Notes: generated by a model not told the origin, from the sequence alone. A DNA stretch of 64,000 nucleotides from Melittangium boletus DSM 14713 (GCF_002305855.1 NZ_CP022163.1:6939765-7003764); one strand, 5' to 3'; counted from the stretch's first letter, positions 13,357 to 21,493 are shown. A program made the numbers and translations.

Positions 13357-13608
13357 AGCGTCGGCATCCTGGAGTGGTTGATTTCGCGGCTCTATACCCT
13401 GCCTGCACATCCCCCTGTCAACGCTTCGCCTGCACCCTCACGGATGTCGACGCATGACTCGGGGCCATCGTGGGGGGCTAGCCCTTCGATGTACGACTCT
13501 TTCATTCGCTACTCCATGCCGGTTTATCCCGGCGCACTAACCGTTCACCGAGTCGGAGCTTGAGATTGGCGCGGGAGTGGCGTCGGCGGAGAACCTTGTG
13601 CCTGGGGG

Positions 13609-14448
13609 TTGCTGCGGATGCATGAGGACGCTGCTGGCCCGAGTGGAGAGCGAGCAGGGGGGAGTATGACCGCGCACGTCAAGCCGCGCGGAGTGACTCC
13701 CGACGTTATTCATCGCCACATGATGGAAGGAGACCCTCGAGACGCGCGCATCGCGGAGTTGGAAGAGCAGGTGGCCGCCAGAGACGCGCGCATCGCGGAA
13801 CTGACGGCCCTGGTCGAGGCGCTCACTCGCCGAGTAGCGGAGTTGGAGGCCCGCCTGGGGCAGAACTCCACCAACTCCTCGAGACCGCCGTCGTCGGACC
13901 CGCTTGGAACGAAGCGAAAGCCAAGGCGGCCCGAAAAGCGCCGCCGCCCAGGCGGGCAGCCCGGCCACGAGCCCCACAAGCGGGAGTTGCTACCAGAAGA
14001 GCAAGTCGACCGTGTCGTCGACTTGCCACCGCCCAAGCAGTGCGAGCGCTGCGAGCACGAGCTGGAGGGCACGCGGCAGCAGGCGCTGCGGCACCAGGTG
14101 GTGGAAGTGCCACCGCTCAAGCCTGTCGTCACGGAGTACCGTTGCCATGGGCTGACGTGTGCACACTGTGGCACGTTGAATCGGGCCCTGCTTCCACCAG
14201 AAGTGGCTGGCCATGTGTTTGGCGCTCGCCTGTCGGCGCTGGTGTGCCTGCGGGTAGGCAAGTACCGGCTTTCCAAACGGCTGGTACAGGAGGCGCTGTC
14301 GGACTTGCTGGGAGTGCGCCTGTCGCTGGGTGCCGTCAGCAACCGGGAGCGGGAGATGAGCCAGGCCCTGGCGGCGCCCATGGAGCAGGCGGAGCGTTTC
14401 ATCCGCGACCAGGAGCGGGCCATGGATGAGACGAGCTGGGTGGAGGGG
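13609..14448 (+). pseudogene. IS66-family transposase, N-terminal part (interrupted by ISAs1 copy 1)
   Basis: Leucine-zipper-like EL..RVAELEARLGQNSTNSSRPPSSDPLGTKRKPRRPE followed by a zinc-finger-like C..C...L.GT..Q.L block (QCERCEHELEGTRQQAL...CHGLTCAHCG) typical of IS66 TnpC N-termini. The frame is cut at the ISAs1 IR (14449). Confidence 0.65.
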
Positions 14449-14610
14449 CCAGGCTTGATTCAAAGTCCCACGGGAGAAGTTATCCCACCTGGACCTACGG
14501 AGGAGGTAAGGTGCCCGCGGACGGGACAAGGTGGCGCGAGCAGCGCGGGGCTGATCGCGTGGCACGAGCCCGAAACAGGCAGGACGCGGGCCAGTTGAGG
14601 CCGGTGGAGA

Positions 14611-15449
14611 GTGAAAGTGGGTAGGGAGAAAAACCGGGGCGGGAGAGCTGGCGGGCCCTCCACACCCCCTGAGAAGCAAGGAGAAGCGAGGAGACACAAG
14701 AGAGAAGACGCCTCGCCCGTGCAGGAGATGTTGACGCGGTTGGGAGTAACGTTCAAGCAGATAGTGGACCCAAGGGCCAGCCGCGGCAAGAGACACGAGT
14801 TGGGGGCGATGCTGTCGCTGCTGGTGCAAGGGCTGGCGACCGGAAGAAGAGTGCTGAGACAGGTAGAGGCGTTGGGTGCGGACTTGGTGCGCGAGGGGAC
14901 AGGGCCAGCGGGATTGCGCGGACCGGTATCAGACACGACCTTGGACAGACTGCTCAGTCAGCTCAAGCCCGAGGGGTTGGACAAGGTGCTGCGGCAGTTG
15001 GTGCGGACGGCGCTCGAGCGGGGAGTGCTGCGTCAGGACAGGATGGCGGCGGGAGTGGTGTCGATTGACGGCAAGGCGGGGGAGAGCACGCGAGGACAAG
15101 CGCCCTGCGAGCCATGTCACACACTGAGAGACGAGCAGGGGCAAGAGTATTGGTACCCTTTCGCGCTGCGAGCGGCGCTCACCAGCAGCGGAGCGTGCCC
15201 GGTGCTCGACCAGATGATGCTGGAGGGCAAGCAAGGAGAGGCGACGGCCTTCCCCAAGCTGCTCAAGCGGGTGGTGGAGAAGTATGGAGAGCACTTCAAA
15301 TACGTGACGGGGGACGCGGGGCTGACGAGCGCGGCGAACGCGAGAGCGGTGAGAGAGGCAGGCAAACATTATGTGTTCGCCGTGAAGGAGAACTTCCAGC
15401 GCTTGCATGACGTGATGTGGGTGGCGCTGGGGACAGCACCCGTACAGGT
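14611..15449 (+). pseudogene. ISAs1-family transposase copy 1, N-terminal part
   Basis: About 90% identical to the intact copy (18391..19710) up to ...VALGTAPVQV, where the copy-2 end begins. Confidence 0.65.
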
Positions 15450-15582
15450 CAGGCCTGATCCAAAGTCCGAGAGGGAGGTTTTGAAGGGGGCGGGCCCGGG
15501 GGCAAGCCGTTTCAGGCAAGAGCGTGGCGTGCTCCCAGCAGGCGCTCGCGAGAGGAGCGCCTCGGGGAGGGCAACTGGCTGA

Positions 15583-19881: not shown

Positions 19882-20364
19882 GTGACGGTGAGAGAGCGGG
19901 CGCGGGGCGAGTGGGTGGAGCGGCAGCTGAGAGCGACACGAGTGCCCGAGACAGAAGAGTTTCCAGAAGCGAGGCAATGGGTGTGGGTGCGCCGCACGCG
20001 GGAGCGGGAGGGGAAGTTGCCCGAGGTGGAGACACGGCTGTTTATAACGTCCGTACCTGGCGGGGAGTTGTCGGGAGAGCAGCTGCTCACGCTGGTGAGA
20101 GGGCATTGGGGAATAGAGAATGGGCCCAACTGGACGGCGGACGTCGTGCTGGAGGAAGACACGGGCTCGGCCAGCTTGCGTGGGCAGGCGCCCGTGGTGC
20201 TCAGTTGGCTGAGGCTGCTGGCCTACAATCTGCTGGCGCTGGTGCGCACGCACCTGCCCCCAAAAGACGGCAGGCTCGTTTCTTACGCTCGCACCCAGGA
20301 AGTGCTCTACCAGGGCTTGCTGGGCCTGGCGGTGCTGCCGGAGAGTCTGGCCGTACTTGCCTGA
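19882..20364 (+). pseudogene. ISAs1-family transposase copy 1, C-terminal part (separated from its N-part by nested copy 2)
   Basis: 160 aa, ~95% identical to the C-terminus of the intact copy (RGHWGIENGPNWTADVVLEEDTGSASLRGQAPVVLSWLRLLAYNLLALVRTHLPPKDGR). Confidence 0.65.
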
Positions 20365-20562
20365 GCGCCCGCCAGCGCCCGGCTCCGGCCTCCTCTGCCT
20401 CCACCTCCTCGGCTTCGTGGGTCCGTCATCAGTCAGTTCCCCTCCCCGGGGCGCTCCTCGCGCGAGCGCCCTCTGGAAGAACGCTCCCCTTTTGCCTGAA
20501 ACAGATTGTTCTCCCTTCACCCCTCTTCAAATCTTCCCTCTCGGACTTTGGATCAAGCCTGG

Positions 20563-21297
20563 GTGGAGGGGCGCGGACGGCGTGCGTGGCTGTGGCTGGT
20601 GGCCTGCGCACTGTTGGCCGTGTTCCGGATTGCCACCAGCCGAGGCAGTGAGGTGGCCAAGGGATTGCTGGGAGAGGATTTCGCCGGGATTCTCGGCTCG
20701 GACCGGTGGAGCGCGTACAACTGGTATGAGCAGGCACTTCGGCAACTGTGCTGGAGCCACCTGACGCGAGACTTCCAGGGATTCATTGACAGAGGCGGAG
20801 AGGGCGCACGAATAGGCCGGGAGCTCATGGAAGAGCGCGACCGGATGTTCAAGTGGTGGCACCGGGTGAGGGACGGGACGCTGACTCGTGCGGACTTCGA
20901 GCGGAAGATGAGGAGGGTGGAGCCCGAGGTGGAGCGGCTGCTCCGGGACGCCGCGGAGCATGCCGAGAAGAAGACGGCCGGCATGGCCAGGGAGATTCCC
21001 AAGTTGAGGCAGGCCCTGTGGACATTCGTCGAGGTGGAAGGCGTGGAGCCGACCAACAACTACGGGGAGCGGCTCCTCCGTCATGCGGTGCTCTATCGGA
21101 AGACGAGCTTTGGGACACAGTCACCTGAAGGGAGCCGTTTCGTGGAGCGGATATTGACGGCGGTAACAACGCTCGACTTACAGGGGCGCAACGTCCTGGA
21201 GTTCCTCACCGAATGCATGCGAGCACATCGACGCGGACTTCCCACTCCCTCCCTGCTCCCGGGCATGACCACCGCTCAAGCGGCACTCGCCGCCTGA
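20563..21297 (+). pseudogene. IS66-family transposase, C-terminal part
   Basis: ...DRWSAYNWYEQALRQLCWSHLTRDF..., ...VEGVEPTNNYGERLLRHAVLYRKTSFGTQSPEGSRF... are conserved IS66 TnpC C-terminal blocks (CWAH.RR.F; EPTNN.AER..R; RK.S.F..S..G). Confidence 0.65.
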
Positions 21298-21313
21298 TTC
21301 GGTGAACGCTTAC

Positions 21314-21493
21314 GACCGTCACAGGACTACGCTCCACGATTGCATCCAAGGCCATGCTCTTTCCTCCTCGAAAGGGCGAGGGCGCACTGAGCTTGACCAT
21401 CCGAGAGCCTGGACCCACCTCTACCTGGATGGGCCTTCACGTTCCCACCTACCGCTATGGTAGCACCCTCCGCATGACCTTGAAAGTGGTGGG
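21314..21493 (-). mobile_element. solo end fragment (~180 bp) of a second IS4-family copy, truncated by the IS66 element
   Basis: 21400-21493 (ggacccacctctacctggatgggccttcacgttcccacctaccgctatggtagcaccctccgcatgaccttgaaagtggtg) is ~85% identical to the left end of the intact IS4 at 18230-18319. The short minus ORF 21206..21418 encodes MALDAIVERSPVTVVSVHR, similar to ALKAIMERFTQRSPVTVMVRR in the intact transposase N-terminus. Confidence 0.5.

What the first reader, a model, noticed from the sequence alone, without database searches (positions are those of the whole stretch)
13537..21493. Five-level nested insertion-sequence stack (IS4 fragment < IS66 < ISAs1 < ISAs1 < IS4 < IS5)
Reading outward: an IS5 with perfect 20-bp IRs (15583-16640) sits at the boundary of an IS4 element (16642-18322). 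That IS4 lies in the 3' non-coding end of an inverted ISAs1 copy (15450-19872, 11-bp TSD cccgtacaggt). This copy lies inside the transposase gene of a second ISAs1 copy (14449-20562, TSD gtggagggg). The second copy splits the IS66 transposase (13609-14448 / 20563-21297). The IS66 right end (21313, GTAAGCG-type terminus) abuts a solo end of another IS4 copy (21314-21493).

Each junction is supported by inverted repeats plus target duplications. This gives a time-ordered record of at least five transposition events into one ~8-kb spot, and only the innermost transposases can still be functional.
Basis: seen in the sequence. Interest (0 to 1): 0.6.

Follow-up and report, generated by a model that had tools for sequence, protein, structure and literature searches.

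The report
Nested pile-up of mobile elements
A 10-kb stretch of the Melittangium boletus chromosome is a real pile-up of eight mobile elements inserted into one another; this is an ordinary kind of transposon graveyard, but clean enough that most of the insertion order can be read from the sequence.

Summary

**Confirmed**
- An IS66-family element is split by an ISAs1-family element (A).
- A is split by a second, inverted ISAs1 relative (B), which is only 87% identical to A.
- B carries an IS5 and an IS4 element in its 3' non-coding end.
- Removing each insert together with one copy of its target duplication restores the host element or its reading frame every time.

**Corrected**
1. IS4 inserted after IS5, not before. 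Its 10-bp duplication CCTCTGAGGA contains the last 4 nt of IS5 plus IS5's own TGA duplication. Fourteen related copies show that this IS4 lineage makes 10-bp duplications.
2. The duplication flanking A is 11 bp, not 9.
3. The 'solo IS4 end' belongs to a relative that is only 77-79% identical.
4. Four transposase genes are intact (ISAs1-B, IS5, IS4, IS701), not only the innermost ones.
5. The stack continues to the left. An ORF-less group II intron sits between nt 1 and nt 2 of the IS66 left inverted repeat, and an IS701 element is inserted in that intron's exon-binding loop.
6. IS66 has no target duplication, so at least one rearrangement occurred as well.

The source is the PacBio-assembled genome of M. 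boletus DSM 14713. Interest is low to moderate.

The parts
11344..21313 (+). IS66-family element, single-ORF type, 1654 bp once all inserts are removed. Its own sequence is 11344 (nt 1, inferred), 13538-14449 and 20573-21313. No target duplication.
   Evidence: NF033517 scores 293 bits against a cut-off of 180 on the rejoined 502-aa ORF. That ORF is 85% identical over 100% of its length to P0121. Relatives end GTAACCG...CG[GC]TTAC with 8-bp duplications. The terminal repeats occur only at 13537 and 21313 in the window.
11345..13537 (-). ORF-less group II intron, about 665 nt without IS701, inserted between nt 1 and nt 2 of the IS66 left inverted repeat. It reads outward from the IS.
   Evidence: RF02005 scores 102-109 bits against a gathering score of 49, and the match is split by IS701. 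The 5' end is GTGCG at 13537. D5 and D6 are homologous to, and fold like, those of L104 and L041, which do reach RF00029. The loop UAACCG pairs with the exon end CGGUUA and co-varies in relatives.
11823..13356 (+). IS701-family element inserted in the intron's exon-binding (EBS1-like) loop. It is flanked by GTTAAC at 11823-28 and 13351-56, and one of those copies is intron sequence. The transposase ORF 11937-13187 is intact.
   Evidence: NF033540 scores 422 bits against a cut-off of 150. The inverted repeat is ACTACTGCGTCA/TGACGCAGTAGT. Uninterrupted homologous introns have a 9-nt loop at this position.
14450..20561 (+). ISAs1-family element A, 1678 bp without its insert, sitting inside the IS66 transposase gene. 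Its 11-bp duplication GGTGGAGGGGC lies at 14439-49 and 20562-72. Its transposase is split at 15449/19884.
   Evidence: NF033564 scores 94.5 bits against a cut-off of 70. The termini CAGGCTTGATTCAAAGTCC are confirmed in four copies with different flanks. The rejoined ORF is 400 aa.
15450..19872 (-). ISAs1-family element B, 1679 bp without its inserts, inverted inside the transposase gene of A. Its 11-bp duplication CCCGTACAGGT lies at 15439-49 and 19873-83. The transposase ORF 18391-19593 is intact.
   Evidence: NF033564 scores 89 bits. B is 87.4% identical to A end to end, with one gap column far from the insertion site.
15583..16639 (+). IS5-family element, 1057 bp, with a perfect 19-bp inverted repeat and a TGA duplication at 15580-82 and 16640-42. 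It lies 133 bp from one end of B, downstream of B's stop codon. The transposase 15821-16618 is intact.
   Evidence: NF033580 scores 231 bits against a cut-off of 110. The inverted repeat appears (I7). An independent copy in a related strain is also preceded by TGA. The protein is identical to WP_157775614.1.
16646..18319 (-). IS4-family element, 1674 bp, and the youngest event on this branch. Its 10-bp duplication CCTCTGAGGA (16636-45 and 18320-29) spans the last 4 nt of IS5, IS5's TGA, and GGA from B. The transposase 16816-18165 is intact.
   Evidence: NF033592 scores 131 bits against a cut-off of 115. Fourteen relatives end CACCAC...GGGGTGG; twelve have an exact 10-bp duplication and one differs at one base. 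The site scores in the top 0.06% of window 10-mers for the target profile nYCTnAG.
21314..21491 (-). The 5'-terminal 178 bp of a different IS4-family element, cut by the right end of IS66. The 10 bp at 21492-21501 is its remaining target copy.
   Evidence: Identity to every IS4 relative is 77-80%. Homology runs from the terminus CACCAC to the IS66 junction, with a 12-nt deletion. Synteny with the related-strain contig L166 ends exactly at this terminus.

Best explanation
This is a transposon graveyard in a strain-variable region of the Melittangium boletus DSM 14713 chromosome, next to a low-GC island.

**Most parsimonious history (order is inferred unless marked as shown)**
1. An IS4-like element inserted downstream of the YD-repeat-like gene at 21578-22903.
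2. An IS66-family element landed in its 5' end.
3. Two independent branches then built up inside IS66.

**Branch 1**
- ISAs1-A cut the IS66 transposase gene.
- The related ISAs1-B inserted, inverted, into A's transposase gene.
- An IS5 element inserted at a TGA in B's 3' non-coding end.
- An IS4 element then made its staggered 10-bp cut across the IS5/B junction. It duplicated 4 nt of IS5, IS5's TGA and 3 nt of B. The order of these last two events is shown, not inferred.

**Branch 2**
- An ORF-less group II intron retrohomed into the outermost bases of the IS66 left inverted repeat, guided by a 6-bp EBS1-IBS1 pairing.
- An IS701 element then hit the GTTAAC in that same intron loop.

**Rearrangement**
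At least one deletion or recombination removed the other half of the IS4-like element and one IS66 flank.

**Why the elements accumulated here (inferred)**
- Insertions into dead mobile DNA cost the host nothing.
- Several elements have sequence preferences that this DNA satisfies. IS5 takes TNA. The IS4 lineage takes nYCTnAG, whose centre is the same TNA. The intron takes the IS66 terminal repeat.

**Current state**
- IS66 and ISAs1-A are dead.
- ISAs1-B, IS5, IS4 and IS701 keep intact transposase ORFs and ends.
For: **Structure**
- Self-BLAST and repeats.
- Rejoined ORFs.
- Family models above curated cut-offs.
- Rejoined IS66 protein aligns full-length with relatives.
- After removal of IS4 and IS5, B aligns with A without a gap at the site.

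**IS5 before IS4**
- Of 14 related copies from Cystobacter, Archangium and others, 12 have exact 10-bp duplications abutting CACCAC/GGGGTGG.
- The right-hand duplicate in the window reads CCTC TGA GGA.
- Uninterrupted B would have given TGGC TGA GGA.

**Termini**
- ISAs1 starts CAGGC in four copies.
- IS66 relatives end GTAACCG...TTAC with 8-bp duplications.

**Intron**
- Rfam RF02005 match.
- D5/D6 homology and identical fold.
- Exon/loop covariation: CGGTTA pairs with UAACCG in the window and L130, and CGCTTA pairs with UAAGCG in L065 and L104.
- Homologous introns lie at IS66 ends in metagenomes. An IS66 transposase C-terminus is within 60 nt upstream in L074 and L065, and within 475 nt in L130.
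- Precedent: RmInt2 homes into the inverted repeats of ISRm17 (PMC4615759).

**Source and assembly**
- Five window proteins are identical to M. boletus DSM 14713 entries.
- That genome is a PacBio RSII assembly, HGAP, 83-fold coverage, single contig, Illumina-polished (PMC5679812).

**Related strain**
- Contig L166 is 97% identical over window 21491-24508 and diverges exactly at the IS4-like terminus.
Against: - IS66 has no 8-bp duplication. The other half of the IS4-like element is absent from the window. The step 'IS66 inserted into the IS4-like element' therefore rests on precise abutment alone and needs an extra rearrangement.
- The IS66 nt 1 at 11344 is a single base (C in the 3' exon), which has a 1 in 4 chance of matching by accident.
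- The window's intron D5 does not reach Rfam RF00029 even at E <= 10. It also has a G.A where the conserved G.U wobble is expected.
- The metagenome search was for the junction itself, so it cannot show that the intron lineage occurs only at IS66 ends.
- Nesting order is not strictly proven. B, or A mobilised in trans by B's transposase, could have moved as a composite.
- No transposition activity was measured for any element.
Confidence: 0.85

Rival explanations
1. One reading: IS4 inserted first into ISAs1-B, and IS5 later inserted at the IS4 boundary.
For: IS5 and IS4 lie only 6 bp apart, and TGA occurs on both sides of IS5. Three copies (window, L001/L002, L003) share AGAG[GC] just outside CACCAC, which at first looked like a longer IS4 end.
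Against: With 14 copies, the conserved bases outside CACCAC turn out to be a target preference, not part of the IS. Every copy ends CACCAC...GGGGTGG and is followed by a copy-specific 10-bp duplication. The right-hand duplicate in the window begins CCTC, which is IS5's terminus, not TGGC, which is B's sequence there. A chance match of these 4 bases has a probability of about 1/256.
Confidence: 0.03
2. The stack is an assembly chimera of dispersed IS copies.
For: The region is made almost entirely of repeats, and repeats can mislead assemblers.
Against: A chimera would not produce exact 11-, 11-, 3- and 10-bp duplications across each insert. Nor would it restore full-length ORFs and gapless alignments on removal of the inserts. 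A and B are only 87% identical, and the IS4 fragment only 77-79%, so they would not collapse onto each other. The genome is a single-contig PacBio assembly at 83-fold coverage.
Confidence: 0.02
3. Part of the nest was pre-assembled elsewhere and arrived as a unit. Either ISAs1-B already carried IS5 and IS4, or A::B was moved by B's transposase acting on A's near-identical ends. Either way, fewer than the apparent number of events happened at this site, and outer does not always mean older.
For: B keeps both terminal repeats and an intact 400-aa transposase. The terminal repeats of A and B differ at only 1-2 positions.
Against: No second copy of any composite junction was seen in the window or in the fetched loci. 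The related strain has the IS5 at a different site, not inside an ISAs1. Moving 4.4-6.1 kb composites is less parsimonious than simple insertions.
Confidence: 0.1

Closest known systems
Nested IS insertions ('IS graveyards') in IS-rich bacterial genomes, and the classical nested retrotransposons of maize
   Same: Mobile elements sit inside one another. Each is bounded by its own terminal repeats and target duplication, so relative ages can be read from the nesting. (This comparison rests on general knowledge.)
   Different: The depth is unusual for a bacterial chromosome: eight elements of six kinds in about 10 kb. The nest also mixes DNA transposons with a retroelement (the group II intron).
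IS66 family, single-ORF (ISBst12-like) members
   Same: It has a DDE_Tnp_IS66 transposase and terminal repeats of the type GTAA[G/C]CGTTCACCG. The family is described as having 20-30 bp IRs starting GTAAGCG and 8-bp DRs (PMC11946415). Close relatives have 8-bp duplications.
   Different: This copy has no duplication. Its transposase gene is split, and its left repeat is interrupted after the first base.
RmInt2, a group II intron of Sinorhizobium meliloti that homes into the inverted repeats of ISRm17 (PMC4615759)
   Same: The intron sits in the terminal inverted repeat of an insertion sequence. The target is recognised by intron-exon base pairing, and the two repeats of each IS offer two target sites.
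   Different: The intron here is ORF-less (about 665 nt) and of a different lineage (Rfam RF02005 type). It lies between the last two bases of an IS66-family repeat and is itself disrupted by IS701. RmInt2 encodes its own protein, and its homing has been shown experimentally.
IS5 family, IS1031-type target choice
   Same: A 3-bp duplication of a TNA site, here TGA, as described for the IS1031 subgroup (PMC12016507).
   Different: This element is 1057 bp with one continuous ORF. Its subgroup was not determined.

Membership tests
IS66 family | IS66-type DDE transposase | tested here: met
   NF033517 scores 293 bits (cut-off 180) and PF03050 scores 103 bits on the rejoined ORF.
IS66 family | Terminal inverted repeats starting GTAAGCG | tested here: met
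   The right end is GTAAGCGTTCACCG. The left end is [G]TAACCGTTCACCG, with its first base displaced by the intron. Relatives read GTAACCG.
IS66 family | 8-bp target duplication | tested here: not met
   The flanks are GATTGAGT and GACCGTCA. Relatives L051 and L054 have exact 8-bp duplications. This points to a later rearrangement rather than a different family.
ISAs1 family (elements A and B) | ISAs1-type transposase with the DDE_Tnp_1_assoc N-terminal domain | tested here: met
   NF033564 scores 94.5 and 89.3 bits (cut-off 70). PF13808 and PF01609 also match.
ISAs1 family (elements A and B) | Terminal inverted repeats and a target duplication | tested here: met
   The 19-bp repeats start CAGGC. 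Both copies have exact 11-bp duplications. From memory, the range usually quoted for the family is up to about 10 bp. I did not verify that figure.
IS5 family | IS5-type transposase (DUF4096 plus DDE_Tnp_1) | tested here: met
   NF033580 scores 231 bits (cut-off 110). PF13340, PF01609 and PF13586 match.
IS5 family | Short TNA-type duplication next to terminal repeats | tested here: met
   TGA lies on both sides of a perfect 19-bp repeat. A second copy in L166/L167 is also preceded by TGA.
IS4 family | IS4-type DDE transposase | tested here: met
   NF033592 scores 131 bits (cut-off 115). PF01609 matches.
IS4 family | Terminal repeats with a 9-13 bp duplication | tested here: met
   The duplication is exactly 10 bp in the window and in 12 of 14 related copies.
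IS701 family | IS701-type transposase | tested here: met
   NF033540 scores 422 bits (cut-off 150). PF13546 matches.
IS701 family | Defined ends and target duplication | tested here: inconclusive
   The element is flanked by palindromic GTTAAC on both sides. One copy belongs to the intron loop. The split between repeat and duplication cannot be set without other copies.
Group II intron | Conserved domain I structure and a 5' GUGYG | tested here: met
   RF02005 scores 102-109 bits (gathering score 49). The 5' end is GTGCG at 13537 on the minus strand.
Group II intron | Catalytic domain V and branch-point domain VI | tested here: inconclusive
   RF00029 gives no match at E <= 10. However, the sequence aligns with, and folds like, D5/D6 of L104 and L041, which both pass RF00029. 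An AGC triad, a 2-nt bulge and a bulged A in D6 are present.
Group II intron | Exon recognition by EBS-IBS pairing | tested here: met
   A 6/6 pairing between the loop and the last six exon bases, with G/C covariation in four introns.
Group II intron | Intron-encoded reverse transcriptase | tested here: not met
   There is no room for an ORF in about 665 nt. L104 is likewise about 700 nt, whereas L065 and L041 carry an ORF region. ORF-less introns are a known subclass that depends on a protein supplied in trans.

The most novel reading that the evidence does not exclude
The Rfam RF02005-type intron lineage seen here may be a specialist parasite of IS66-family elements.

- It includes ORF-less members of about 700 nt.
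- It inserts between the last two bases of the terminal inverted repeat and so disables that end.
- Its exon-binding loop tracks the GTAACCG and GTAAGCG repeat variants.

If this holds across genomes, it would be a recurring 'retroelement that neutralises a DNA transposon' relationship. That would go beyond the single rhizobial precedent.
Probability: 0.4. Interest if true: 0.4.

Novelty: new member of a known kind. Interest (0 to 1): 0.25.

Why it matters
**Practical use**
- It gives curated ends, duplications and target preferences for seven unnamed myxobacterial mobile elements.
- It shows that the eight 'transposase' CDSs expected here from the accession numbering (ATB32294 to ATB32301, inferred; the record itself was not read) correspond to four broken gene halves and four intact genes.
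- It is a clean teaching example of dating insertions from the content of a duplication: the IS4 duplication contains IS5 sequence.

**Biology**
- It illustrates how dead mobile DNA and overlapping target preferences concentrate insertions.
- It adds a second clear case of a group II intron that targets IS terminal repeats.

It does not change any general view of transposition.

Tried and rejected
1. **Longer IS4 ends.** From the first three IS4 relatives I suspected that the IS4 end extended 5-7 nt beyond CACCAC. The 14-copy comparison showed this is target preference.
2. **IS5 creating the IS4 target.** I considered that the IS5 insertion created IS4's preferred target. The core CCTCAG already existed in uninterrupted ISAs1-B, so only the low-information outer positions improved. 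I dropped this in favour of 'overlapping preferences'.
3. **Truncated intron.** I first read the intron as a 3'-truncated fragment, because Rfam found no D5/D6. Alignment with the ORF-less homologue L104 showed it is complete.
4. **Source-genome look-ups.** Exact-protein look-ups of the source genome failed, and the GTDB scan did not contain the source genome. I therefore could not obtain copy numbers or the partner of the IS66 rearrangement.
5. **Other half of the IS4-like element.** I looked for it and for additional IS66 or ISAs1 ends in the window. None exist beyond those listed.
6. **PADLOC scan of the adjacent low-GC island.** It gave only weak hits.
7. **Second junction sequence.** A second sequence type recurs at the searched junction in metagenomes. 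It gave no Rfam or IS66 match.
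Full report
**Where the window comes from**

Five proteins encoded in the window are identical to entries of Melittangium boletus DSM 14713:
- ATB32291, ATB32292 and ATB32293 at 7164-11305;
- the IS5 transposase, WP_157775614.1;
- ATB32302 at 21578-22903.

That genome was assembled from PacBio RSII reads with HGAP at 83-fold coverage into one contig, then polished with Illumina reads (PMC5679812). 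By accession numbering, eight entries (ATB32294 to ATB32301) fall between ATB32293 and ATB32302. Only ATB32297, the IS5 transposase, was seen directly. I infer that the others are the IS genes and gene halves described below.

**Check of the observation**

- I cut out each proposed insert together with one copy of its duplication. This restores a 400-aa ISAs1-A transposase and a 502-aa IS66 transposase.
- The rejoined IS66 transposase aligns over 100% of its length with relatives at up to 85% identity.
- NCBIfam models score above their curated cut-offs for IS66, ISAs1 (twice), IS5, IS4 and IS701. Pfam agrees.
- The terminal repeats of IS66, ISAs1 and IS4 occur only at the expected positions. 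No shuffled control reaches the observed counts.

**ISAs1 elements**

- Four copies with unrelated flanks all begin CAGGCTTGATTCAAAGTCC: A, B, one in Cystobacter ferrugineus and one in C. fuscus.
- A is therefore 14450..20561, with an 11-bp duplication GGTGGAGGGGC, not 9 bp. This matches the 11-bp CCCGTACAGGT around B (15450..19872).
- A and B are 87.4% identical in DNA and 90% in protein. They are related elements, not copies of one IS.
- B's ORF (18391-19593, minus strand) is intact.

**IS5 and IS4: the order is reversed**

- I fetched relatives of the IS4 transposase from genomes and metagenomes. Fourteen copies end CACCAC...GGGGTGG.
- Twelve of them have an exact, copy-specific 10-bp duplication, and one differs by a single base.
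- Applied to the window, IS4 is 16646..18319 and its duplication is CCTCTGAGGA, at 16636-45 and 18320-29.
- The left copy of that duplication is made of the last four bases of IS5 (CCTC), IS5's own TGA duplication, and GGA from ISAs1-B.
- Had IS4 arrived first, the right copy would read TGGCTGAGGA. It reads CCTCTGAGGA. IS5 was therefore already in place.
- After removing IS4 plus 10 bp and IS5 plus 3 bp, B aligns with A without a gap at the site.
- The duplications define a target profile, nYCTnAG. The window site ranks in the top 0.06% of all 10-mers in the window.
- The centre of that profile is a TNA, which is the site type that IS1031-type IS5 elements duplicate (PMC12016507). This explains why the two elements chose the same few bases.
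- Because the duplication regenerates the IS5 terminus, IS5 remains complete.

**Left side of IS66**

- Relatives of the IS66 element end GTAACCGTTCACCG...CGGTGAACG[GC]TTAC and make 8-bp duplications.
- In the window the left repeat reads CTAACCG. The C at 13537 is the first G of a group II intron on the minus strand.
- Rfam RF02005 scores 102-109 bits against a gathering score of 49, and the match is interrupted by the IS701 element.
- Alignment with an ORF-less homologue of about 700 nt (L104) and with an ORF-containing one (L041) shows that the intron is complete. Its domains V and VI fold the same way as theirs, although Rfam's D5/D6 model does not reach threshold.
- The intron ends at 11345. 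The next base, 11344, fits IS66 nt 1.
- A 9-nt hairpin loop in the intron, GUUAACCGA, is complementary to the last six exon bases, CGGUUA.
- Two homologous introns lie after CGCUUA, and their loop reads UAAGCG. A fourth intron, lying after CGGUUA, again has UAACCG. This is covariation of an EBS1-IBS1 pair.
- A metagenome scan for the junction found five homologous introns. Three of them have an IS66 transposase C-terminus upstream.
- Homing of a group II intron into IS inverted repeats has a precedent in RmInt2 and ISRm17 (PMC4615759).
- IS701 (intact transposase, 11937-13187) is inserted at the GTTAAC of that same loop.

**Right side and missing pieces**

- The fragment 21314-21491 is homologous to the 5' end of IS4 relatives from the terminus up to the IS66 junction. 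It has a 12-nt deletion and is only 77-80% identical to any copy.
- IS66 lacks a duplication: GATTGAGT on the left, GACCGTCA on the right.
- A contig from a related strain (L166) is 97% identical over window 21491-24508. It diverges exactly at the outer end of the IS4-like remnant. It then carries about 2 kb that the window lacks, while window 5908-21491 is absent from L166.
- So at least one deletion or recombination accompanied the insertions, and the stack lies in a variable region next to a 49-53% GC island.

**Interpretation and limits**

- The partial order is: IS4-like, then IS66. After that, one branch runs A, B, IS5, IS4. A second, separate branch runs intron, IS701.
- Only IS5-before-IS4 is proven by sequence content.
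- The rest is the most parsimonious reading. ISAs1-B is intact, and its ends nearly match those of A, so composite moves cannot be excluded.
- All duplications are exact and the broken ORFs carry no further lesions, which suggests that the events are recent.
- Assembly error is very unlikely, given the matched duplications, the divergence between the repeats, and the long-read assembly.

**Verdict**

This is a real, unusually deep, but conceptually ordinary nest of mobile elements.

Noticed in passing
window 6900-11305: A low-GC island (49-53% GC, against about 70% in flanking DNA) encodes a methyltransferase-domain protein, an SF1-helicase-like ATPase and a 736-aa protein with a C-terminal AlkB-like 2OG-Fe(II) oxygenase domain. 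PADLOC hits are weak only (mad8-like and DRT-associated helicase-like). It ends 38 bp before the IS66 composite.
   Followed up: partly
window 5406-5474 and 5700-6100: A short internal fragment of an ISAs1 element (83% identical over 70 bp). Nearby there are pieces matching DNA found beside IS copies in other Archangiaceae loci (L024, L026, L054). This is further mobile-element debris.
   Followed up: no
window 30842-31441 (-) and 35861-36835 (-): Two more distant transposase genes: one IS5-like (28% aa identity) and one IS701-like (32% aa identity, ORF 35729-37078).
   Followed up: no
L166 versus window 24508-28866: The related-strain contig shows further presence/absence differences. Window 26072-27802 is missing from L166. 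L166 5468-8396 (a luciferase-like gene and a YD-repeat paralogue) is missing from the window. L166/L167 also carry the same IS5 (about 95% identical) at a different TGA site.
   Followed up: partly
L056, L061, L067, L069, L071, L075 and about 20 other loci: Many metagenome contigs share a second conserved sequence directly after GGTGAACGSTTA: GTGYGATAAACTGG...AAGTTGACA. It has no Rfam match and no nearby IS66 transposase, and I could not identify it.
   Followed up: partly
L005 and L006 (Cystobacter fuscus NCWS): Two IS4 copies at loci 4.5 Mb apart have the same 10-bp duplication, GCCTCACGGC. This suggests insertion into a repeated sequence or a duplication of the locus.
   Followed up: no
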